DNA from: Oligoflexia bacterium
GTDB lineage: Bacteria; Myxococcota_A; UBA796; UBA2385
Reading direction: 5' to 3'
Length of the DNA stretch: 24,279 nucleotides
Assembly: GCA_013152105.1 (NCBI GenBank)
Contig: JAADHA010000514.1
Coordinates: 1 to 24,279 of the forward strand
The translations under genes were made by a program, and so were the position numbers. Below the pieces are notes generated by a model that saw only the letters and a list, made by a program, of their open reading frames with translations, was not told the DNA's origin and did no database searches. Shown here piece by piece: positions 324 through 8,682 of the stretch (its first letter is position 1; every line of letters starts with the position of its first letter).

Positions 324-1310
324 TCAGGGCAACCGGATGCCGGCCTTGTCGGCGATGGCCCGGGTCAACTGACGAAAGTCCTCGCCACACTTCCGAGCGG
401 CAGCGCCGCGGGAGCCAAGCGCGCCGTCGGCCGGCTTGAGGTGGAAGATGGGCTTGCGGGCCTCTATTGCCATGGGCATCAGGCTGCGGTAGTGCTTGAG
501 CTGGGCGAGGCAGTGGGGGTCCTTGTCGACTTTCACCACGTCCGCCGAAGGCTCGTCCAGCACAGAGCCCCGATACTCCGACGGGATCCTGGCCATCCAC
601 TTCGCATTGGCTCGCATCGGTCGATCCAGTCGCACGTTGTGCTGGAGGACGACATACCCGGCGGGTGCCATCGCCCCGGTTGGGAGATCCAGGTCTCGTG
701 GTGCCTTTTGGCGGCGTTCAGCCCAGCCCTCTCGCCAGTCGCGCAGGGCGGGGCCAAGGTTACGCAGCCCTTGGAGCGAGAACAGGTCCGGTGCGAGGGG
801 CATGACCACGTGGTCGGTTCCAAGCAGGGCCGCGCGCTTGATGGCGCCCAGGTTTGGACCCACATCGATGAGCACGATCTCGGTACCACGTGCCTCGGCC
901 GCCATGAGCATCATCCGGTAGAAGGCCGTCAGCATTCGGAAGGCGGCTTCGTCCTGGTCGAGGCAGCGGTGCCAGTCCTGGGAGAGGCGATCCTCGATGC
1001 GGGAGAGACCCAGGTCTCCCACGACCAGGCCGATGGCGTCGCTGATCTCCTCGACATGGGGCTGGCGCACATCGCCAAGCCCCCGCAGAATCGGCCCGAC
1101 CGCACCGAGCACAGTGTCGACGTGATCGTCGTCCGGCCACAGCTTCGCCAAGCGCTCTTCTTCCAGGAACATCGACGTGAGGTTGGCCTGGGGATCGAGA
1201 TCGGCGACCACGACATCGACCCCGAGGTCGGCCAGTGTCCAGGCCACGTGGTAGACCAGGGTGCTCTTGCCCACGCCGCCCTTGTTGTTGAAGAAGGCGA
1301 TGGTGTTCAT
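324..1310 (-). CDS. ParA/MinD-family ATPase (328 aa)
   Basis: Deviant Walker A NNKGGVGKST, ADLDPQANLT motif, Walker B IVLIDVGP and PLAPDLFSLQGL. The C-terminus HYRSLMPMAIEARKPIFHL is typical of the non-partitioning ParA subfamily. The ATG overlaps the upstream stop (ATGA at 1310-1307). Confidence 0.92.
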   Translation of the reverse strand: MNTIAFFNNKGGVGKSTLVYHVAWTLADLGVDVVVADLDPQANLTSMFLEEERLAKLWPDDDHVDTVLGAVGPILRGLGDVRQPHVEEISDAIGLVVGDLGLSRIEDRLSQDWHRCLDQDEAAFRMLTAFYRMMLMAAEARGTEIVLIDVGPNLGAIKRAALLGTDHVVMPLAPDLFSLQGLRNLGPALRDWREGWAERRQKAPRDLDLPTGAMAPAGYVVLQHNVRLDRPMRANAKWMARIPSEYRGSVLDEPSADVVKVDKDPHCLAQLKHYRSLMPMAIEARKPIFHLKPADGALGSRGAAARKCGEDFRQLTRAIADKAGIRLP

Positions 1311-2065
1311 GATCTCCGCCTGACGGTGACGAGCGTGGCGCTTTGCGAGAGCGAGAACTCCGGTGGAGGGTTGCCGTTGTCTCGCAGCAGTCGCCTGGAG
1401 AGGGGGATCCCGTAGCCGAAGCGCTGGACGTAGCCGAGGTTGGCCATGGCTTCCGCCACCAGGGGGTTGCGATAGTCGGTCGCGCCACTGCCGAAGTTGT
1501 CCAGAGTCACCTGCCCGAAGGGGCCGCCGGGGTTGTGGATCTCGACGCGATCATCGAACCAGTAGATGCGAACGGGGGCGTTGCTGGTCTCGTAGTTGCG
1601 ATGGATCAGGGCGTTGCGGGCGAGCTGCTGCAAGGCCGCCAGGGGGTAGTCGCGGACGCGTGACTCGGTCGCCCCGCCTGCGATGTCGACGGCGGTGGAG
1701 ACATTGAGCTTCAGCAGGCCGTCGAGCCGATGAACGACTTCGTACAGCGGACCGGACAGATCGTGGTCGTCCTTGATGGGGTCGCCCAGCTCGGTGCCGT
1801 CGATGCGCAGGAACACCAGGTACGCGCCGGGGACGAAGCTCCTCGGGTCCTTCCCCAGGACCAGGATGGCACCGTAGGTAGGCAGATAGCCAGACAGCAA
1901 GCGCAGGGACTCAAGGCGTTCCTGGACGGTTCGTTGGTTGTGACGGAGCACATCCGCATCGACTGCCGCGGGGAGGTAATTGCTCTTGAAGTAGGCAAGG
2001 TCGAGATCGTCCAGGCCCGAGCCGTCGGCTGGACGCCGGTCGAAGGGCTGGCTTCGGTGACTCAT
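1307..2065 (-). CDS. RecG-C/HATPase_c_4-type ATP-binding protein lacking the N-terminal Schlafen/AlbA_2 domain (252 aa)
   Basis: Motifs YPLAALQQLARNALIHRNY, RVEIHNPGG, YRNPLVAEAM and GYVQRFGYG. ATG at 2065 has GAGGAG just upstream. It begins at the PFD..P...LDDLD segment that normally follows the AlbA_2 domain. It could be a truncated remnant. Confidence 0.8.
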   Translation of the reverse strand: MSHRSQPFDRRPADGSGLDDLDLAYFKSNYLPAAVDADVLRHNQRTVQERLESLRLLSGYLPTYGAILVLGKDPRSFVPGAYLVFLRIDGTELGDPIKDDHDLSGPLYEVVHRLDGLLKLNVSTAVDIAGGATESRVRDYPLAALQQLARNALIHRNYETSNAPVRIYWFDDRVEIHNPGGPFGQVTLDNFGSGATDYRNPLVAEAMANLGYVQRFGYGIPLSRRLLRDNGNPPPEFSLSQSATLVTVRRRS

Positions 2066-2143
2066 GCCGGTGCTCCTCTCTTCCTGCTTGCCCTGCGGCG
2101 CCGGCCCGCAGCCCCAGATCCCCATGAGCCCCCCACCCGAGCG

Positions 2144-4228
2144 TCAGTGACCGGGGGCCAGCGTGGTCTCGAAGGTCCAGTAGTCGGCGGGATCACTCAG
2201 CGCGAAGGTCATCGTGTGCAGCCCGCGAGAGATGCAGCCCAGAAAGTCGGGGTCTACATCGGCTGGTTCCAGTGCGGTGAGGCCCTGAACATGACCGCTG
2301 AAGCCCACGAATGCCCGCAGCTTGATGCTGCTTGGTGCGTCTGCATGGGCGGTGAAGCAGGTGTCGAACATGGCGCGCGAGACTTGGAGTTGTTCCTGGA
2401 CAGCGGCCGCCGAGAGGGTGACGCCTTCTTGGCTCTTCGTGGGCTGGAAGAGGGGCTGGTCCAGTTCAAGGTGGGGCTGTACAGAAATGGGGTGATCTGG
2501 CTTTGGGTCCACCACGTCCTGGAAGGGCTGGAAGCCGTCGAGGGACACGGTGAGCCGCACGGGACCGGGTGGGAGCTGGTCGCCCTGGAAGGTGTGCGGG
2601 CCGACTCCGACCAGGACATCGTTGAGGTACACGACGGCCGTCGGTGGATCGGGGTCCACCTGAAGGAGTCGTTGGCTGGAATTGGGTTGGGTGCTGACTT
2701 GGTAGGCCAGCCGCCCGGCTCCCCAGAGCGTGAGCGCGCCCACCGCCACCAGGCCGGCGATGAGCAGGACCCGTGGAACCCGCTCGCGCTCGACATCCAA
2801 GGTGACGGTCACTCGCGGACCATGGGATGGCACGATTGTCACGATGCTGCTGCCGCGTTGGCGGGGCATCCGATCTGGATGAACGGTCGCCGTGATCTGG
2901 TGCTGGGTCTGTCCGGCGTCCAGCCGCTCGGGATTGACGGTGACCCAGTCGCGATCCGCCATGATGCGGCCGGTGGTGGGCCCGGTTCCGACCTGCTTGA
3001 GTCGAATGGTGACGGAGCGGTTTCGCCTGCCGACGCGTAGGCTGTACTGGTTGGGAGTGAGCAGTTCGACGCAAGTTCCACTGCGCTGTGAGCCGAGAGA
3101 CAGGGTCTTACCGGTGATACGCTCGGGCGGTCGAGGAATGCTCAGCACCGAGGGTTTTGGCGGTGTGGACCCGGGATTGGACCGGATGGCGGCCATGAGG
3201 TGGGACGCGGGGACCGGTGGGATCGTGCCAGGTGGCTGTGTGACGGGACGTTTGCCAGGTGATGGTCGTCTGGGCTGGGACTGTGGTGGAGCGGAGATCG
3301 TGCGTGCACCGGGGGGGGCGCTGCTACCCGAGCGCTCGAGTCTGATGGGTGGGAGGGTCCCGGGCGGTTCGGTCGTGTCGCGCCGCTTCTTGTCCTTTGC
3401 AGATGAACTTCCGCCAAAGGAGACAAAATTGAGACTGGGCAGCGAGGGCTCCTGGTCCGCGCTGGCCTGGCTCGGCTCGTTGGTGGGCGGTCGCAGGAAG
3501 CCGTCGGTAGGGTCCAAATCAAAGGCAGAGGCAGCAGGAAAATGGGCCCGGTACTTGTCGTCATAGGCGGCACGCCGAGTCGGGTCCTTCAGGTCTCGGA
3601 GCGCTGCGTCGATGCGGGAATACTCGTCTCGCGATCGTCGCGTGTCGGACAAGGTGCGTGCCCAGCGGTACTTTTCTCGGTACGCGTGGTCGATCTCGTC
3701 TGGTGTGGCGGAGATCGGGACTCCCAGGACCAGGTAGTGGTTGGGGAAGTCGTCGGGGGGCGCACTGCCGCTGGCTGCACCGCCGCTGGTGTCGATGCCG
3801 TGTTCCTTGGCGAGGGACTGGATTTGCTGGCGCACGGCGCTTTCCTTCAAGCCGAGCTTCTTGCCCTGAGCGAGGATGGCGGCTTCGCCGGCTGGGGTGA
3901 GCGAGCCGCTGGCCAGCGTGCCCCGGATGAAGAGAGACAGGACCTCGAGACCGCGGGTCTGCTCGTGGTCGGCGAGATAGTCGATATACTGCTGGCGCGC
4001 GTCCATCAGCGATCCGCGCAGCAGGCGGATGTTCTTGATCACCCAGATCGCTTCGCCACGGTACTTGGGATTGGCTTGTTGGCCCTGGGCCCAGGCGCGG
4101 CGGCTCTTGATCGCTTGTTCGGCTTCGCCCGCAGGAGCCTGTGGGTCGAACGACAGGTAGTCGAACAACGAGGTCTTTCCCACTGTCGTGAGGAAGCGGG
4201 TGATTTCTTCGAAGTCGCGCTCGTTCAT
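2144..4228 (-). CDS. Single-pass membrane protein: J-like domain, TerB-like helical segment, J-like domain, Pro-rich linker, Ig/BACON-like domain, TM helix, PEGA, AgmX/PglI (TonB-C-like) C-terminal domain
   Basis: The J fold is clear at 3742-3551 (NHYLVLGVPISATPDEIDHAY...DLKDPTRRAAYDDKY) but has no HPD. TM helix VLLIAGLVAVGALTLWGAG at ~2770-2714 is preceded by RERVPR. PEGA pattern LQVDPDPPTAVVYLNDVLVG..P...L.PG...L.V...GF. C-terminal VQEQLQVSRAMFDTCF...F.GCI..L..M.F. Start is ATG 4228 or TTG 4264 (ORF track). Confidence 0.8.
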   Translation of the reverse strand: MNERDFEEITRFLTTVGKTSLFDYLSFDPQAPAGEAEQAIKSRRAWAQGQQANPKYRGEAIWVIKNIRLLRGSLMDARQQYIDYLADHEQTRGLEVLSLFIRGTLASGSLTPAGEAAILAQGKKLGLKESAVRQQIQSLAKEHGIDTSGGAASGSAPPDDFPNHYLVLGVPISATPDEIDHAYREKYRWARTLSDTRRSRDEYSRIDAALRDLKDPTRRAAYDDKYRAHFPAASAFDLDPTDGFLRPPTNEPSQASADQEPSLPSLNFVSFGGSSSAKDKKRRDTTEPPGTLPPIRLERSGSSAPPGARTISAPPQSQPRRPSPGKRPVTQPPGTIPPVPASHLMAAIRSNPGSTPPKPSVLSIPRPPERITGKTLSLGSQRSGTCVELLTPNQYSLRVGRRNRSVTIRLKQVGTGPTTGRIMADRDWVTVNPERLDAGQTQHQITATVHPDRMPRQRGSSIVTIVPSHGPRVTVTLDVERERVPRVLLIAGLVAVGALTLWGAGRLAYQVSTQPNSSQRLLQVDPDPPTAVVYLNDVLVGVGPHTFQGDQLPPGPVRLTVSLDGFQPFQDVVDPKPDHPISVQPHLELDQPLFQPTKSQEGVTLSAAAVQEQLQVSRAMFDTCFTAHADAPSSIKLRAFVGFSGHVQGLTALEPADVDPDFLGCISRGLHTMTFALSDPADYWTFETTLAPGH

Positions 4229-4267
4229 GTCCGCCAGCGGCGTCGCCTGGTTCACGTTGGCCAAGGC

Positions 4268-4330: not shown

Positions 4331-6112
4331 TTAACTGACTTGGGCCCGGTTCACGTTCTCGAAAGCGCGGGACAGATCGTCCTGTCCGAGGCCGCCGCGG
4401 AGGCTGATCTCGGCGCTACGCGTGGCCTGTGTCTCGACATCGACGACGTCGACTTCCAGGATCTGATTGACGCCGTATCGATAGCTGACCTCGATGACCG
4501 TGCCCCGAGGCCGGGGTGGCAGCTTGTCGAGGATCACCTCGCCGATGACCTTGACTTCGGCGCGTGAGCCGCCTTCACCCTCGGTTACTTCGACGCGCAC
4601 GGCGGTCATATTGTCGTAGGCATAGGCGAAGCGACCGTGTTTCTCGCAGGGAAGCGGGGTCGCCGATGGGATGATCGGCACCACGCGTTCGCGGAGCTGC
4701 TTGTCCAGGACGACGATACCCAGCGTGTGGCTGGTGATATCCGTGACCTTTACGTTCGGGATTCCGACGGTGGTGCGGCCGATTTCGTTGGTGAACGGGT
4801 TGGAGGCTGACCGCCCATGCCTGGAGCGTTCCGGAGCGGGTTCCAGCGTGGGCGTCAGGTCGTGTTCGAGGTGGCTGGGTTCGGTTGGCGCGGGTACCGG
4901 CAGGGGTGCCGGTAGGGGTGCCGGTAGGGGTGCCGGCAGGGGTGCCGGTCGGGGTGCCGGCGCGTCCTGGCTTGGAGAGGCTGCGCGCCTGCGCCCGACC
5001 GCGCGATGGGCCAGCGCTTGCCGATGGGCGAGCAGCGCCGGGTGCGAGGGGCGGTGTCGCAGCACGCCTGCCAGGGCAGCGCCCAGCGCCACGCACTCGT
5101 CGGGGTTGACGCCCAGGGCCGCTTCCTGACCCGACATTGTACGCAGCCGCTGACTGATCATCGGCATGCGTGTCGAGCCCCCCACCAGCAGGACCTCGTC
5201 CAGATCCCCCCACCCGACGCCGGAACGCTTGAGCACCAGATCGCAGGTCTCCGCACACTGCTCGACCAGGTCTGCCGTCATCGCCTCGAACTCTTCCCGC
5301 ATGACGCTGACCACCATGCGGTTCCCCTTGTAGGTGACGGGGATCACGGCCCGCTCGCGGCTCGACAGGGAGATCTTGGCGTGCAGACAGCGTTCGTAGA
5401 GTTCCTGGTAGCGGTGTGGGTCATCGCGCGGATCAGAGCCGAACTTGCTGACGAATTCCTCGGAGACGTGGTTCACCAGCCGGTCGTCCCAGTCCTTTCC
5501 CCCCAGCTCGGCGTTGCCATCGCTGGCTACGGTGCGAAACGACACGCCCGTGATCTCCATCAGCGTCACGTCAAAGGTGCCTCCGCCCAGGTCGAAGACC
5601 ATCAGGCGGCGGTCCTGGCCCAGCCGCTCGATGCCGTAGGCGATCGCGGCCGTGGTCGGCTCGTTGATGATGGACAGCACATTGAGGCCAGCGAGCTTCC
5701 CGGCTTCGGCGGTGGCACCGCGCTGGGCGCTGTTGAAGTAGGCGGGCACCGTGACCACCGCGTCGCAGACGGCTTTTCCGAGCGCTTCTTCAGCGTCTTC
5801 CTTCATCTTTCGCAAGATGATGGCCGAGAGTTCTTGGGGGGTGTAGGTCCTGCCGAAGAACTCCAAGGAGAAGTCGGGTTCGCCCATGGTGCGCTTGATG
5901 AAGCGCACGACATTGGTCGGATCGACGACCACCATCTTGACCGCTTCTTCGCCGACAACACAAGCGTCGCGATGGTAGAAGTGAATCACCGAGGGCGTGG
6001 TCGGGTGACCGTCGGCGTTGGGGACGATCACCGGCTTGCCGAAGCGATCGACAATTGCCATGGCCGAGAAGGTCGTGCCAAGGTCGATGCCCATGACCAG
6101 ATCGCTGTTCAT
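4331..6112 (-). CDS. Hsp70-family protein, lidless, with ~100 aa Pro-rich insertion before the interdomain linker (593 aa)
   Basis: GIDLGTT, TVPAYF, INEPTTAAIAYG, VFDLGGGTFDV, LVGGSTRMP and NPDECVALGAAL are present. The SBD-beta runs DITSHTLG...LPPRPRG...YRYGVNQILEV. The protein ends about 20 aa later. ATG 6112 lies 13 nt after the grpE stop. Confidence 0.93.
   Translation of the reverse strand: MNSDLVMGIDLGTTFSAMAIVDRFGKPVIVPNADGHPTTPSVIHFYHRDACVVGEEAVKMVVVDPTNVVRFIKRTMGEPDFSLEFFGRTYTPQELSAIILRKMKEDAEEALGKAVCDAVVTVPAYFNSAQRGATAEAGKLAGLNVLSIINEPTTAAIAYGIERLGQDRRLMVFDLGGGTFDVTLMEITGVSFRTVASDGNAELGGKDWDDRLVNHVSEEFVSKFGSDPRDDPHRYQELYERCLHAKISLSSRERAVIPVTYKGNRMVVSVMREEFEAMTADLVEQCAETCDLVLKRSGVGWGDLDEVLLVGGSTRMPMISQRLRTMSGQEAALGVNPDECVALGAALAGVLRHRPSHPALLAHRQALAHRAVGRRRAASPSQDAPAPRPAPLPAPLPAPLPAPLPVPAPTEPSHLEHDLTPTLEPAPERSRHGRSASNPFTNEIGRTTVGIPNVKVTDITSHTLGIVVLDKQLRERVVPIIPSATPLPCEKHGRFAYAYDNMTAVRVEVTEGEGGSRAEVKVIGEVILDKLPPRPRGTVIEVSYRYGVNQILEVDVVDVETQATRSAEISLRGGLGQDDLSRAFENVNRAQVS
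4897..4960. repeat. 12-bp tandem repeat, about 5 copies, in frame (PAPL units)
   Basis: Units CCGGYAGGGGTG start at 4897, 4909, 4921 and 4933, CCGGTCGGGGTG at 4945, plus a partial CCGG. They encode PAPRPAPLPAPLPAPLPAPLP. Confidence 0.9.
5082..5109. repeat. 28-bp perfect direct repeat shared by the two Hsp70 genes (other copy 7658-7685)
   Basis: CCCAGCGCCACGCACTCGTCGGGGTTGA is identical at 5082-5109 and 7658-7685, encoding NPDECVALG. Confidence 0.85.
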
Positions 6113-6125
6113 GGGCGGTCCGTCT

Positions 6126-6671
6126 TCACTTGCCACCCGACGTCTCCGAGCCAGTAGCGCGACCAGGCTCGAAGCGATTGATCACGACTTCTTCGGGTCG
6201 CAGGATCCGCTCGCCCCGGGTGAAGCCCCGCTTCAGGACCTGGCGCACGACATAGTCCTTGAGCTTGTCGTTGGCGTAGACGACCTTGATGGCCTTTTGG
6301 GTCTCGCGATCGAACTTGTCCTTGCTCTCCATGGGCAGGACGTCTCGGCGGTAGAGCAGCTCGAGGAACTCGTCGATCAGGTACTGAAAGCTGTCCGCGA
6401 TCACCTCGGCGCTCATCTCTTGCTTTACCAGGCTTTGCTGGAACCAGTTGAGGCTGTCGTAGAACAACAGCAGGTCGAGCAAGAGCGGCTTCTCCATCTG
6501 GTAGATGAAGTCGTCCTTGTACTGCCGAAGCTCTTCGTAGAGGGCATCAAAGGCACGCTGCTGGACATCGTCGCGCTTGGCCTGCTGGTCGACGAAGTCG
6601 CGCAGGCTGTCGACTTCGTCGCTCTGGACGTCGATCGAGTAGTCCTGCTCAGGTGTCTGGTTGTCTGCCAC
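6126..6671 (-). CDS. grpE: GrpE-family nucleotide exchange factor (181 aa)
   Basis: Coiled-coil N-terminus, KPLLLDLLLFYDSL, KFDRETQKAIKVV and the C-terminal VRQVLKRGFTRGERILRPEEVVI. GTG start with AGGAG overlapping the upstream TAG stop. Confidence 0.85.
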   Translation of the reverse strand: MADNQTPEQDYSIDVQSDEVDSLRDFVDQQAKRDDVQQRAFDALYEELRQYKDDFIYQMEKPLLLDLLLFYDSLNWFQQSLVKQEMSAEVIADSFQYLIDEFLELLYRRDVLPMESKDKFDRETQKAIKVVYANDKLKDYVVRQVLKRGFTRGERILRPEEVVINRFEPGRATGSETSGGK

Positions 6672-6681
6672 GGGCTGACTC

Positions 6682-8682
6682 CTAGCTTGGGTCGCTCAGC
6701 TCGGTCGCGAGGTTGATGAAGGTGCCTTCCAATTCCACGCTCTGGTTGCAGTGGTGGTAGTCGGAAGGGCGCGAGCACAAGCCCATCAGGAATTCCTGAT
6801 GGACCTGTCTGCCCACGCCGATGGCGACGATGCGGCCCCCGGTGCGGCGGATGCGCTGGCTCTCTGCCATGGTCGCGGCCGGATCGTCAGGGTGCCCGTC
6901 CGCCAGGATGACCACGACGCGCTGGGCCCCCGAGTTGCTCTTGAGAGCCTTGCGGGCCTGTTGCAGCCCCAGCGCCATGGGCGTGGACCCGATGGGGCTC
7001 AGGCCACTGAGCGCGGCGTGCAGCGCGTCTCGATCCTGGGTTGGCGCGGCACGAAGCCCGCCAGGGAAGGCGATGACGGCGATGTGTCGGGAACGGTCCA
7101 GGGTGCGGTCGACGAAGGCCAGGGCGGCCGCGCGGGCGTCCCGGATATTGCTGCCGTACATCGATCCCGAGCAGTCCATCACCAGCGCGATGTGCATGGG
7201 CACACGATTGCTGGCCAGGTCTTCCAGGGTCACGCCGCCCTGCGCCAGACGGTGGGCCAGCGTCTGGCCGGTGTTGAGGTCCATTGCTTCGACTTCGACG
7301 ATGCCGTTTGCGTTGTAGCGGTAGGTCACAGCGAGCTGTGTAGCGCCAGCGGGCCGGGGCGGGATCCCGTAGAACTCGAAATGCCCGAGCACATTGCAAT
7401 TCAGCGGGTCGGGGTTTTCGCCTTGGACCAGCCACAGGTCCATCGTGGACTGACCGTCGTGGGTCGTGACGTAGTTGTCGCGCGTGTGTTCGCATGGAAT
7501 GCGGCTGTTGCGCCGGATGATCGGGCTGTTGTGCATCTTGTTGTCGCGGTACACGACCATGCCCAGGCTGTGGCTGGTGACGTCGTGGGTGCGGATGTCG
7601 ATCGGTGGTCGGTCGCCAGTGAGTCGTGCGCTCTCCAGGGCCGCGGTGAGCGCCGCACCCAGCGCCACGCACTCGTCGGGGTTGATGTCAGTGGCGGGCT
7701 CGCGCTGAAACAGGCGCCGGATCAGCTCGCGCACCATGGGCATGCGGGTTGATCCACCGGCCAACAAGACCGTGTCGATGTCCTGGGGGCGAACCTTGGC
7801 GTCGTCCATGACATCCAGGGTCAAGGCTTCGCAGCGGCCGAGCAAGCCGATCGACAGATCCTCGAAGATCTCACGGGTGATGGACTGCCGCAGGATCTGG
7901 CCCTGGAAGTCATAAAAAATGTTGACCTTTGGGCGACGCGAGAGGCTGAGCTTGGCGCTTACACACTTCTGGCGCAGGTCGTGGTAGGCGACCAGGTCGT
8001 CGAGGGGGTCGACGCCGTGTTTCAGACTGAACTCGTGCGCGACGTAGCGCATCAGCGCGTCATCCCAGTCCTTTCCGCCGAGCTGATGGTCGCCGGTGCT
8101 GGCCAGCACGTTGATGTCGTTGCCGCGAATGTCGACGATGGTCACATCAAAGGTGCCACCGCCAAGGTCGAAGACCAGGCACTTCATGTCCTGGCCCTGG
8201 TGGGCCAGTCCGTAGGCGAAGGCGGCCGCGGTGGGTTCGTTGACCAGCTTGAGGACCTGGAGACCGGCCAGCTCGCCGGCCCGGATCGTGGCGCGGCGCT
8301 GCCGGTCGCCGAAGTAGGCTGGAACCGTCACGACCGCCTGTTCGATGCTGTGCCCCATGCGGTGTTCGGCGTCGTGCTTGAGTCGGGCCAGGATGAAGCT
8401 GGACAGCTTTTCGGGGCTGTACTGTTCGCCGCGGTACTCAAAGCTGAAGTCGTCGGGGCCCATGTGGCGCTTGATGAACTCAACCACCTGGTTTGGAAAC
8501 GCGATCGCGGCCTGCTTGGCGTAGTTTCCGACGATGATGTCGTCGCCGTCAAAGAGCAGGACGGATGGGGTGATCCGGTCCCCCTCGGCGTTGGCGAGGA
8601 TCTCCGGTACACCGTGCTTGTTGACGTGGGCGATGGCCGAGTAGGTCGTGCCCAGGTCGATGCCGACAGCTCGGATACTCAT
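6682..8682 (-). CDS. Hsp70-vWA fusion protein (666 aa)
   Basis: Hsp70 motifs GIDLGTT, VPAYF, VNEPTAAAFAYG, DLGGGTFDV, LAGGSTRMP and DVTSHSLG. These are followed by a vWA domain (~7200-6685) with MIDAS DCSGS, GSTP and ILADG. ATG 8682 has a TAAGGAG SD. Confidence 0.93.
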   Translation of the reverse strand: MSIRAVGIDLGTTYSAIAHVNKHGVPEILANAEGDRITPSVLLFDGDDIIVGNYAKQAAIAFPNQVVEFIKRHMGPDDFSFEYRGEQYSPEKLSSFILARLKHDAEHRMGHSIEQAVVTVPAYFGDRQRRATIRAGELAGLQVLKLVNEPTAAAFAYGLAHQGQDMKCLVFDLGGGTFDVTIVDIRGNDINVLASTGDHQLGGKDWDDALMRYVAHEFSLKHGVDPLDDLVAYHDLRQKCVSAKLSLSRRPKVNIFYDFQGQILRQSITREIFEDLSIGLLGRCEALTLDVMDDAKVRPQDIDTVLLAGGSTRMPMVRELIRRLFQREPATDINPDECVALGAALTAALESARLTGDRPPIDIRTHDVTSHSLGMVVYRDNKMHNSPIIRRNSRIPCEHTRDNYVTTHDGQSTMDLWLVQGENPDPLNCNVLGHFEFYGIPPRPAGATQLAVTYRYNANGIVEVEAMDLNTGQTLAHRLAQGGVTLEDLASNRVPMHIALVMDCSGSMYGSNIRDARAAALAFVDRTLDRSRHIAVIAFPGGLRAAPTQDRDALHAALSGLSPIGSTPMALGLQQARKALKSNSGAQRVVVILADGHPDDPAATMAESQRIRRTGGRIVAIGVGRQVHQEFLMGLCSRPSDYHHCNQSVELEGTFINLATELSDPS

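What the first reader, a model, noticed from the sequence alone, without database searches (positions are those of the whole stretch)
2144..4264. Unusual domain string across the membrane: cytoplasmic J-like/TerB-like/Ig domains joined to periplasmic PEGA and AgmX/TonB-C-like domains
Seen: one TM helix with a basic N-side (RERVPR) and no signal peptide, which implies N-in/C-out topology. The cytoplasmic side has two J-like domains, a helical segment (GSLTPAGEAAILAQGKKLGL), a long Pro/Ser-rich linker and an Ig/BACON-like beta domain. The outside has PEGA and a C-terminal alpha/beta domain. Established: AgmX/PglI-type TonB-C-like domains occur in myxobacterial gliding proteins such as GltG/GltJ and contact outer-membrane partners, and DjlA combines TM, TerB-like and J domains. 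Inference: the protein could recruit Hsp70 to a site defined by an outer-membrane partner, analogous to membrane J proteins of organellar translocases.
Basis: partly seen in the sequence, partly recalled or inferred. Interest (0 to 1): 0.7.

Follow-up and report, generated by a model that had tools for sequence, protein, structure and literature searches.

The report
Membrane J-like anchor of Hsp70 operon
This gene encodes a real, previously undescribed single-pass membrane protein with two degenerate J-like co-chaperone domains inside the cell and a TonB-like domain outside it. It is the conserved last-but-one gene of an operon that encodes two unusual Hsp70 chaperones, so it most likely tethers that private chaperone machine to the cell envelope.

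Summary
The domain string is real. The gene (window 2144-4228, minus strand; true start ATG at M13) encodes a 694-aa bitopic protein, N-in/C-out.

**Cytoplasmic side**
- J-like domain 1.
- A short TerB-like helical unit.
- J-like domain 2.
- A 150-aa Pro/Ser-rich linker.
- A beta-sandwich domain.

**Periplasmic side**
- A PEGA domain.
- A C-terminal domain remotely homologous to AgmX/PglI tails (hhalign 97.6%, P 3.7e-12), with a TonB/TolA C-terminal fold.

1. Neither J-like domain has the HPD motif. Both neighbouring Hsp70s lack the DnaK-R167 partner residue.
2. In 40 related loci the gene sits in a fixed operon: Hsp70-vWA, GrpE, lidless Hsp70, this gene. A TPR-zincin gene usually follows but is absent here.
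3. A complex prediction (0.70, best control 0.00) puts the invariant J1 loop on Hsp70 lobes IB/IIB, not on the canonical J site.
4. The periplasmic part is short and compact, so an outer-membrane partner is unproven.

**Distribution.** The family was found in one order of Myxococcota (at least 40 of 60 genomes sampled) and in none of 341 genomes elsewhere in the phylum.

**Earlier scan notes.** The scan noted a similar Hsp70/vWA/J-like-PEGA module on other DNA (e1-2883328).

**Verdict.** This is a new variant of the "specialised Hsp70 with a dedicated membrane J protein" theme. Its function is inferred, not shown.

The parts
2144..4228 (-). Gene for the 694-aa bitopic J-like/PEGA/AgmX-like membrane protein. 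P0001 is numbered from the upstream TTG at 4264; the real start is M13 at 4228.
   Evidence: all homologues start at MNERDF.: large family.
3965..4177 (-). J-like domain 1 (residues 30-100). It carries the family signature W-A-Q-G-Q-Q-x-N-P-K-Y/F in place of the HPD loop. It is present in all family members.
   Evidence: (hhalign against J2: 94.8%, P 4.8e-8)
3779..3967 (-). Helical unit (residues 100-162), weakly TerB-like. It forms one rigid body with J1 in the model.
   Evidence: TerB sub-threshold in 9/89 members; 2ou3_B: Z 6.1, rmsd 1.9, 56 aligned, 27% identity; tied with unrelated helical proteins
3545..3742 (-). J-like domain 2 (residues 175-240). It is a true J-domain homologue with W-A-R-T where HPD should be.
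   Evidence: HPD is kept only in two distant members, and J2 is missing in about a dozen.
3080..3529 (-). Pro/Ser-rich, probably disordered cytoplasmic linker (residues 246-395).
   Evidence: 20% P, 15% S; variable length, many gaps
2774..3079 (-). Cytoplasmic beta-sandwich (Ig/BACON-like) domain (residues 396-497) with a highly conserved D-R-D-W-V motif.
   Evidence: BACON_2 sub-threshold in 9/91 members; PDB 4zmh, E 1e-4
2702..2770 (-). Single transmembrane helix (residues 499-521).
2465..2665 (-). Periplasmic PEGA domain (residues 534-600).
   Evidence: 29 bits against a cut-off of 20.8; 50/91 members
2147..2431 (-). C-terminal AgmX/PglI-like domain with a TonB/TolA-C fold (residues 612-706) and two invariant Cys.
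4331..6136 (-). Lidless Hsp70 (here called Hsp70b), directly upstream. Ser is invariant at the DnaK-R167 position. It is the predicted partner of J1.
6126..6671 (-). GrpE-like nucleotide exchange factor.
6682..8682 (-). Hsp70 with a vWA domain in place of the lid. It is the first gene of the operon; the ORF runs up to 8817 and the likely start is M46.

Best explanation
The protein is the membrane anchor and adaptor of a private, lineage-specific Hsp70 machine.

**Shown.**
- It is a single-pass inner-membrane protein, N-in/C-out.
- The cytoplasmic half carries two HPD-less J-like domains, a short helical unit, a long Pro/Ser linker and a beta-sandwich.
- The periplasmic half is PEGA plus an AgmX/PglI-type TonB-C-like domain.
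- Its gene is fixed in an operon behind an Hsp70-vWA fusion, a GrpE and a lidless Hsp70.

**Inferred.**
- The invariant loop of J1 holds the lidless Hsp70 by the upper rim of its nucleotide cleft (lobes IB/IIB). J1 would then act as a tether or nucleotide-state regulator, not as a classical ATPase-stimulating J domain.
- J2 is an accessory domain, possibly for the second Hsp70.
- The periplasmic TonB-C-like domain binds a peptide of an envelope protein by strand addition, as TonB and TolA do.
- Chaperone activity at the inner face of the membrane is thereby placed at, or coupled to, a defined envelope site.

The client and the envelope ligand are unknown.
For: **Operon.**
- The order Hsp70-vWA / GrpE / Hsp70 / this gene is kept in 40 of 47 related loci. 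Six more are cut by contig ends but agree.
- A TPR-zincin gene follows in 37 loci.

**Genomic setting.**
- The locus is flanked by housekeeping genes (Maf, UDG, S1, QueA, Tgt) in the same order in relatives.
- The genome has canonical DnaK-DnaJ pairs elsewhere, so this set is an extra one.

**Domains.**
- J2 is a J-domain homologue. J1 is homologous to J2.
- The C-terminal domain is AgmX/TonB-C-like.

**Loss of the canonical J contact on both sides.**
- HPD is absent from both J-like domains.
- The DnaK-R167 equivalent is Ser in 27/27 Hsp70b sequences. It is K/A/S/Q, never Arg, in 39 Hsp70-vWA sequences.

**Complex prediction, Hsp70b with residues 13-245.**
- ipSAE was 0.71/0.70/0.70 and the best control 0.00.
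- This mark was reached by 58 of 80 solved complexes and by 2 of 110 mismatched pairs. My own alignments were used, so these counts hold only roughly.
- The runs share at least 95% of their contacts, and the partner's pLDDT is 79.
- The interface is not the textbook J site, so the pass is unlikely to come from memory of DnaK-DnaJ.
- The J1 contact residues are far more conserved than the rest of J1 plus the helical unit (0.69 against 0.41; none of 10,000 resamples reached it).

**Topology.** K/R bias, a single helix and a Cys pair outside.
Against: - No experiment exists on any family member.
- The complex prediction is a model's confidence, not a measurement. Only one of the two Hsp70s could be tested.
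- On the Hsp70b side, the contact residues are not more conserved than the NBD background (P 0.28).
- J1's J fold rests on profile-profile homology and helix order, not on a structural superposition.
- The C-terminal domain does not reach the NCBIfam NF033768 cut-off.
- In this window the fifth operon gene (TPR-zincin) is missing. It was not found in the 79%-complete assembly either, so the system here may be incomplete.
Confidence: 0.5

Rival explanations
1. It is a working J-domain co-chaperone with a rewired catalytic contact. The W-A-R / W-A-Q motifs replace HPD, and the Hsp70s changed R167 to match. The protein would then still stimulate ATP hydrolysis at the canonical IIA/linker/SBD-beta site, as DjlA does for DnaK or DjlB/DjlC for HscC.
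For: - J2 is a genuine J-domain homologue.
- Two distant family members keep HPD in J2, so the ancestor was a real J protein.
- The replacement motifs are nearly invariant.
- R167 is lost in both Hsp70s, which looks like a matched change.
- Dedicated membrane J proteins for specialised Hsp70s are known (DjlB/DjlC with HscC; PMC8215388).
Against: - HPD substitutions abolished stimulation in every system tested, according to the review PMC8215388.
- The prediction puts J1 on lobes IB/IIB, not on the J site, and shows no J2 contact.
- J2 is missing in about a dozen family members whose operons are otherwise complete.
- The acidic loop of the NBD that binds J-domain helix II is four residues shorter in both Hsp70s.
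Confidence: 0.2
2. It is part of a biological-conflict or stress-switch module. Other examples are the Hsp70/GrpE/vWA sets with J-fused membrane or FN3 proteins described computationally in other phyla. The outside domains would sense an invader or damage, and the Hsp70/vWA part would set a threshold for an effector such as the TPR-zincin peptidase.
For: - Kaur et al. 2020 (PMC7159879) describe Hsp70 + GrpE + DnaJ-fused FN3 proteins in GAP1-N2 GTPase systems.
- vWA domains are typical of such systems.
- Earlier scan notes report Hsp70/vWA/J-like-PEGA sets on mobile islands in other phyla (unchecked by me).
- AlphaFold DB clusters show the same double-J N-terminal module on entries named for HtrA-like, FGE-sulfatase-like and FN3 domains.
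Against: - There is no GTPase, nuclease or other effector in the window.
- None of the four proteins hits PADLOC.
- The locus is syntenic with housekeeping genes and follows one order of the phylum, which points to vertical inheritance and not to a mobile island.
Confidence: 0.12
3. It is a GltG/GltJ-type or TonB-type energy transducer. It would work with a proton-driven Tol/Exb/Agl motor in gliding or outer-membrane transport, and the Hsp70 genes would be only neighbours.
For: - It has the same overall plan as GltG (FHA-TM-TonB_C, 640 aa) and GltJ (ZnR/GYF-TM-TonB-C, 674 aa) (PMC3169522, PMC11135422).
- The C-terminal domain is homologous to AgmX/PglI tails.
- The genome carries eight other such tails.
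Against: - No motor or glt genes lie in the window.
- The link to the Hsp70 genes is kept in 40 loci.
- The transmembrane helix is central, poorly conserved and lacks a His.
- The Pro-rich spacer is on the cytoplasmic side, and the periplasmic part is only about 185 aa.
- No FHA, zinc-ribbon or GYF domain is present.
Confidence: 0.08

Closest known systems
E. coli DjlB/DjlC with HscC (dedicated membrane-anchored J proteins of a specialised Hsp70)
   Same: A membrane-anchored J-type protein encoded next to a divergent Hsp70 that does not use the housekeeping DnaJ. The presumed site of action is the inner face of the plasma membrane (PMC8215388).
   Different: DjlB/DjlC are tail-anchored, with no outside domain, one J domain and an intact HPD. 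Here the protein is bitopic with a 185-aa periplasmic part and has two J-like domains without HPD. The operon has two lidless Hsp70s (one fused to vWA) and its own GrpE.
E. coli DjlA (TM - TerB-like - J domain)
   Same: It has the order helical TerB-like unit, then linker, then J domain, on the cytoplasmic side of a single-pass membrane protein. A weak NCBIfam DjlA match covers residues 109-197 (E 0.25).
   Different: In DjlA the membrane helix is N-terminal, the TerB domain is full-length and HPD is intact. Here the TerB-like part is about 60 aa and weakly supported. There is also an extra J-like domain, and large domains follow the helix.
Myxococcus xanthus GltG (PglI) and GltJ (AgmX)
   Same: Bitopic N-in/C-out proteins of about 650 aa, with cytoplasmic protein-interaction domains, a low-complexity Pro-rich stretch and a C-terminal AgmX/PglI-type TonB-C domain with two Cys.
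   Different: The cytoplasmic modules differ (FHA, or zinc ribbon plus GYF). GltG/GltJ sit in glt gene clusters and work with the AglRQS proton motor. In them the flexible region is periplasmic; here it is cytoplasmic. This C-terminal domain falls below the NF033768 cut-off.
TonB / TolA C-terminal domains
   Same: The same fold: 12 of the 13 best PDB representatives are TolA or TonB C-terminal domains (Z 4.8-6.5, 75-85 residues aligned, rmsd 3.2-4.5).
   Different: There is no N-terminal anchor helix with the His-containing motif, no periplasmic Pro-rich rod, and no ExbBD/TolQR genes nearby. Sequence similarity to TonB itself is not significant (E 0.29).
Pam16/Tim16 and other HPD-less J-like proteins of organelle import motors
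   Same: A membrane-associated J-like domain without HPD that works beside an Hsp70 as a regulator or tether and not as an activator (own knowledge; PMC3806816 was listed).
   Different: Pam16 acts by pairing with a true J protein (Pam18), and no HPD-bearing J domain is present here. The predicted contact here is directly with the Hsp70 NBD at lobes IB/IIB.

Membership tests
J-domain proteins (Pfam PF00226) | Four-helix J fold | tested here: met
   J2: Pfam 28.4 bits against a cut-off of 27.8; PDB profile E 4e-11; Z 10.7, rmsd 2.0, 66 aligned. J1: only profile-profile homology to J2 (94.8%) and helix order in the model. No superposition of J1 alone was made.
J-domain proteins (Pfam PF00226) | His-Pro-Asp motif in the loop between helices II and III | tested here: not met
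   J2 has A-R-T and J1 has A-Q-G at the aligned positions. Across the family, HPD occurs only in J2 of two distant members.
J-domain proteins (Pfam PF00226) | Stimulates the ATPase of a partner Hsp70 | not testable with these tools
   Needs an ATPase assay.
AgmX/PglI C-terminal domain (NCBIfam NF033768, myxo_SS_tail) | Scores at or above the curated 40-bit cut-off | tested here: not met
   No hit even at E<=10 for residues 596-706. The genome-wide search finds eight tails elsewhere and none in this contig.
AgmX/PglI C-terminal domain (NCBIfam NF033768, myxo_SS_tail) | Homology to the family profile, with both Cys aligned, at the C-terminus of a membrane-anchored protein | tested here: met
   hhalign of 93 family tails against 7 tails of the same genome: 97.6%, P 3.7e-12, 92 columns. 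Reversed and shuffled controls gave P>=0.012. The Cys pair is invariant in 93/93. AlphaFold DB top hits are named AgmX/PglI or TonB C-terminal, E 5e-5 to 8e-4.
TonB-type energy transducer | C-terminal TonB/TolA fold | tested here: met
TonB-type energy transducer | N-terminal anchor helix with a conserved polar motif, and a periplasmic Pro-rich spacer | tested here: not met
   The helix lies at residues 499-521, has no His and is not conserved in sequence. The Pro-rich region lies before the helix, on the cytoplasmic side.
TonB-type energy transducer | ExbB/ExbD or TolQ/TolR-type motor genes alongside | tested here: not met
   None among the window's genes. The rest of the genome was not searched for them.
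DjlA | N-terminal membrane helix, full TerB domain, C-terminal J domain with HPD | tested here: not met
   The helix is central. TerB is sub-threshold in 9/89 members. HPD is absent. The NCBIfam DjlA match is E 0.25.
GltG/GltJ gliding transducer proteins | Cytoplasmic FHA or zinc-ribbon/GYF module, and location in a glt cluster | tested here: not met
   No such Pfam domains. The neighbours are Hsp70, GrpE and housekeeping genes.
PEGA domain (Pfam PF08308) | Scores at or above the gathering cut-off | tested here: met
   24.6-29 bits against a cut-off of 20.8. 50 of 91 family members match.
Hsp70/GrpE/J-fused conflict systems of Kaur et al. 2020 | GAP1-N2 GTPase core with FN3-DnaJ protein | tested here: not met
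   There is no GTPase and no FN3 in the window.

The most novel reading that the evidence does not exclude
J1 is a J-domain descendant that has changed its docking site on Hsp70. It has moved from the ATPase-activating IIA/linker site to the upper rim of the nucleotide cleft (lobes IB/IIB), the side used by exchange factors. It would then be a new kind of Hsp70 NBD binder that tethers a lidless Hsp70 to the membrane and gates its nucleotide state. The whole protein would be an ATP/Hsp70-driven link across the inner membrane to a TonB-C-like envelope contact, a chaperone-powered counterpart of the proton-driven Ton/Tol/Glt transducers.
Probability: 0.2. Interest if true: 0.8.

Novelty: new variant of a known kind. 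Interest (0 to 1): 0.6.

Why it matters
Hsp70 specificity is thought to be set by J proteins through one universal contact, HPD with R167 and the interdomain linker. Here an order-wide conserved system has lost both sides of that contact but kept a different, invariant loop. A prediction places that loop on the opposite face of the ATPase.

If this is confirmed, it would show a second way in which a J-derived domain can hold an Hsp70. It would also give a bacterial example of an Hsp70 machine wired through the membrane to an envelope-binding domain. Finally, it gives a concrete, testable handle on the many uncharacterised "lidless Hsp70 / GrpE / vWA" operons seen across bacterial phyla.

Tried and rejected
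- **Single-sequence Pfam and NCBIfam scans of the C-terminal domain.** No hit at E<=10. Foldseek against the PDB gave nothing at E<=0.001, although TolA/TonB filled the top ranks.
- **Myxococcus SglK/GrpS/StkA idea.** Rejected. The family was not found outside its own order in 341 other genomes of the phylum sample. The M. xanthus Hsp70 survey contains none of the terms vWA, GrpE, J domain or operon.
- **CoCoNuT Hsp70-like proteins (PMC11090510).** These are fused to McrB/McrC and are unrelated to this operon.
- **GAP1-N2 GTPase systems.** There is no GTPase here.
- **PADLOC.** No match for the four operon proteins.
- **A conserved T-E-P-P-G-T..P-P-V motif in the linker as a family-wide vWA/MIDAS ligand.** It is present in only 13 of 99 members, so it was dropped.
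- **Search for the missing TPR-zincin gene in the same genome.** Only weak TPR matches were found.
- **Literature search for J-domain plus PEGA.** No relevant paper.
- **Conservation of the predicted contact residues on the Hsp70b side.** Not above NBD background (P 0.28).
- **Search for other architectures carrying J1 by sequence.** It returned only the same family, all annotated as hypothetical proteins.
Full report
**1. The observation**

The ORF at 2144-4264 on the minus strand is real. Its first codon in the list is TTG. All eleven close homologues begin at the Met that is residue 13 here (MNERDF...), so the gene most likely starts at the ATG at 4228 and encodes 694 aa. I keep the numbering of P0001, which counts from the TTG.

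The family is large. A profile search of 1.84 billion representatives gives 211 clusters at E<=1e-30, some of which are unrelated PEGA-repeat proteins. A scan of species genomes gives 53 loci. All are metagenome-assembled genomes and most are titled Myxococcota or "Deltaproteobacteria". Where any source gives a name, it is "hypothetical protein".

**2. Topology**

- There is one hydrophobic segment, at residues 499-521. 93 of 99 full-length members have exactly one, and none has an N-terminal hydrophobic stretch.
- Across the family, the 15 residues before the helix carry on average 3.0 Lys/Arg and the 15 after it 0.96. The N side is richer in 82 of 99 members and poorer in 4.
- The C-terminal domain has two Cys that are invariant in 93 of 93 sequences. 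This fits an oxidising, extracytoplasmic location.

N-in/C-out is therefore well supported, though not demonstrated.

**3. Cytoplasmic half**

An AlphaFold2 model of residues 13-245, built from 89 aligned sequences, has mean pLDDT 93.5. It is all-helical, with two rigid bodies joined by a low-confidence hinge (model residues 150-156).

*J2 (175-240).*
- It reaches the Pfam DnaJ cut-off (28.4 against 27.8 bits).
- The family profile finds PDB J domains at E 4e-11.
- The model matches J domains at Z up to 10.7 (rmsd 2.0, 66 aligned) and with Foldseek probability 1.0.

*J1 (30-100).*
- Pfam does not see it.
- Its profile aligns with the J2 profile at 94.8% probability, P 4.8e-8.
- The model shows the expected order: short helix, long helix, loop, long helix, helix.

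*HPD.*
- Neither domain has it. In the HMMER alignment, R-W-A-R-T of J2 lies on R-W-H-P-D. J1 has A-W-A-Q-G in the same register.
- The replacement is a family signature. J1 reads W-A-Q-G-Q-Q-x-N-P-K-Y/F in the nearer members and Y/K-M-Q-G-M-Q-S-N-P-K-Y/F in the distant ones. It is present in every member.
- J2 reads Y-R-W-A-R in most members and keeps a true HPD in two distant members. It is lost altogether in about a dozen.
- J1 is therefore the constant part, and J2 descends from a real J domain.

*Helical unit (100-162).*
- It belongs to the same rigid body as J1.
- The TerB-like label is weak. 9 of 89 members give sub-threshold TerB hits (best E 0.001).
- The match to a TerB-family structure (2ou3_B: Z 6.1, rmsd 1.9, 56 aligned, 27% identity) is tied with unrelated helical proteins.

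*Linker and beta-sandwich.*
- A 150-aa linker follows, with 20% Pro and 15% Ser.
- After it comes a strongly conserved beta-sandwich at 396-497. BACON_2 scores 21.3 bits, below its cut-off of 25. The family profile hits a beta-sandwich stretch of PDB 4zmh at E 1e-4.

**4. Periplasmic half**

PEGA (534-600) is above the Pfam cut-off and is seen in 50 of 91 members.

The last 95 residues match no Pfam or NCBIfam model, even at E<=10. The NF033768 model (AgmX/PglI tail) finds eight copies elsewhere in this genome but not this one.

- **Profile-profile.** The family profile aligns with the seven best tails of the same genome at 97.6%, P 3.7e-12, over 92 columns, with both Cys in register. Reversed and column-shuffled controls give P>=0.012.
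- **Solved structures.** The AlphaFold2 model has pLDDT 96.3. Of the 13 best among 48,161 PDB representatives, 12 are TolA or TonB C-terminal domains (Z 4.8-6.5, 75-85 aligned, rmsd 3.2-4.5). Unrelated chains follow at Z 4.6 and below. These Z values are modest. The weight lies in the concentration of one fold at the top of the list.
- **Predicted structures.** In AlphaFold DB clusters the top 30 are mostly named "AgmX/PglI C-terminal domain" or "TonB C-terminal domain" (E 5e-5 to 8e-4, TM by query 0.58-0.71).

The domain is thus a divergent relative of the AgmX/PglI tail with the TonB/TolA fold. It is not a member by the curated cut-off.

**5. Context, which changes the reading**

*Operon.*
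- The gene is the fourth in a minus-strand operon. The first gene is an Hsp70 whose helical lid is replaced by a vWA domain (6682-8682). The second is a GrpE (6126-6671). The third is an Hsp70 that ends after the beta subdomain (4331-6136).
- In 40 of 47 related loci, all four genes occur in this order. Six more loci are cut by contig ends but agree as far as they go. One short contig (L037) shows no Hsp70 in its 3.7 kb upstream.
- A fifth gene, a TPR protein with a zincin-like H-E-x-x-H domain, follows directly in 37 loci. It overlaps the stop codon in L002-L004.
- In this window that position is taken by an HATPase_c_4 / ParA-like pair. The TPR-zincin gene was not found in the 79%-complete assembly.

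*Setting and distribution.*
- The operon lies between housekeeping genes (Maf, UDG, S1 protein, QueA, Tgt) in the same order in relatives.
- In an even sample of 401 genomes of the phylum, the full N-terminal module occurs in at least 40 of 60 genomes of the window's order. It occurs in none of 341 genomes outside it, where only generic J-domain hits near E 1e-11 appear.
- The genome has canonical DnaK-DnaJ pairs on other contigs and about ten Hsp70 paralogues. The two in the window are among the most divergent.

This is a vertically inherited, order-specific accessory chaperone system.

**6. How the J-like part may meet the Hsp70s**

According to the review PMC8215388, Asp35 of DnaJ's HPD bonds to DnaK R167 and Q378. 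The same review states that HPD mutations abolished stimulation in every system tested.

- At the R167 position, the lidless Hsp70 has Ser in 27 of 27 family sequences.
- The Hsp70-vWA has K (17), A (11), S (9) or Q (2) there, and never Arg.
- The acidic NBD loop that meets J-domain helix II is four residues shorter in both.
- The catalytic motifs of both Hsp70s look intact in the sequences.

Both sides of the canonical contact are therefore gone.

- The score was 0.70 (three runs: 0.71, 0.70, 0.70) and the best of three controls 0.00.
- The runs share at least 95% of their contacts, and the partner's pLDDT is 79.
- This mark was reached by 58 of 80 solved complexes and by 2 of 110 mismatched pairs. 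Because my own alignments were used, these counts hold only roughly.

The model supports binding; it does not show it.

*The interface.*
- On the J side it is the J1 signature itself: K53, R56-W58, Q60-Y68, I73 and I76-R80.
- On the Hsp70 side it is fragment residues 60-79 and 201-234. Using the catalytic Lys and the D-L-G-G-G-T motif as landmarks, these correspond to about DnaK 62-81 (lobe IB) and 230-263 (lobe IIB).
- That is the upper rim of the nucleotide cleft, the side used by exchange factors (own knowledge). It is not the IIA/linker/SBD-beta site of the DnaK-DnaJ structure.
- The pass is therefore not a simple recall of a textbook complex.
- The J1 contact residues are much more conserved than the rest of J1 plus the helical unit (0.69 against 0.41; none of 10,000 resamples reached it). 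The Hsp70 contact residues are not above NBD background (P 0.28).
- J2 makes no confident contact in this model. Its partner, if any, was not tested.

**7. Best explanation and rivals**

*Best explanation (about 0.5).*
- The protein is most likely the membrane anchor and adaptor of this private Hsp70 machine.
- J1 holds the lidless Hsp70.
- The long linker and the beta-sandwich give reach and further binding surfaces.
- The periplasmic PEGA plus TonB-C-like domain ties the assembly to an envelope component.

*Rivals.*
- A rewired but still activating J protein (0.2).
- A conflict or stress-switch module of the kind predicted by Kaur et al. 2020 (0.12). This is disfavoured by the synteny, by the absence of PADLOC hits and by the lack of an obvious effector.
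- A Glt/TonB-type proton-driven transducer (0.08). This is disfavoured by the absence of motor genes in the window, the unconserved central helix, and the Pro-rich spacer lying on the wrong side of the membrane.

A periplasmic, peptidoglycan-associated or inner-membrane partner is at least as likely. This is inference.

**8. Comparison with known systems and novelty**

- The closest known kinds are DjlB/DjlC with HscC, and DjlA with DnaK. Both are membrane-anchored J proteins serving an Hsp70.
- GltG/GltJ share the overall bitopic plan and the tail.
- Pam16-type proteins share the idea of an HPD-less J-like domain beside an Hsp70.
- None of these combines the features found here.
- No paper in the library links a J domain with PEGA.
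- AlphaFold DB shows the same double-J N-terminal module on entries named for HtrA-like, FGE-sulfatase-like and FN3 domains in other bacteria. Earlier notes of this scan report Hsp70/vWA/J-like-PEGA sets in another phylum (unchecked by me). The theme is thus broader than this order.

I rate the finding as a new variant of a known kind, with interest 0.6.

Noticed in passing
window 324-2125 (-): In this window an HATPase_c_4 protein (1307-2125) and a ParA-like ATPase (324-1310) occupy the place where 37 related loci carry a TPR-zincin (H-E-x-x-H) gene. The TPR-zincin gene was not found elsewhere in the 79%-complete assembly. The HATPase_c_4 protein matches PADLOC Argonaute-associated models (E 2.7e-14), and the ParA-like protein matches PDC-M28B (E 2e-9). 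This may be a defence-type insertion that displaced the fifth operon gene.
   Followed up: partly
window 4331-6136 (-) and 6682-8682 (-): Neither Hsp70 of the operon has Arg at the DnaK-R167 position. It is Ser in 27/27 orthologues of the lidless one, and K/A/S/Q in 39 orthologues of the vWA fusion. Both lack four residues of the acidic NBD loop and have altered interdomain linkers (I-D-I-R-T-H and V-K-V-T in place of V-L-L-L).
   Followed up: yes
window about 4766-5059 (-): The lidless Hsp70 carries an insert of about 100 aa, rich in Pro, Arg and His, with P-A-P-L repeats. It lies between the NBD and the linker. Relatives are 30-50 aa shorter in total length.
   Followed up: no
same-order genomes, e.g. 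G102:C47:124661-125839, G050:C14:5769-6905: Genomes of the same order also encode paralogues of 430-510 aa that carry the J1-plus-helical-unit module (profile positions 1-154). Some follow it with a second helical-unit-plus-J2 copy. None was found in the window's own genome.
   Followed up: no
L037 (contig JBEIQZ010000514.1): This is the one locus with a family-type N-terminal match but no Hsp70 or GrpE within the 3.7 kb upstream. It may be a paralogue or a rearranged copy.
   Followed up: no
own genome G000, contigs C264, C685, C238, C477, C494, C396, C380, C344: There are eight AgmX/PglI-type C-terminal tails elsewhere in the genome, six of them above the NCBIfam cut-off. The genome also has about ten Hsp70 paralogues, including two DnaK-DnaJ pairs (C30, C57).
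   Followed up: partly
AlphaFold DB clusters A0A1G1HRF4, A0A399FUJ6, Q1Q0A1, A0A2V6JHI3, A0A1H1DVY1: Predicted structures from other bacteria align over the whole double-J N-terminal module (E 1.9e-8 to 1.1e-2). Their entries are named for an HtrA-like protease, an FGE-sulfatase-like domain and an FN3 domain, so the module may be a portable cytoplasmic head for varied outside domains.
   Followed up: no
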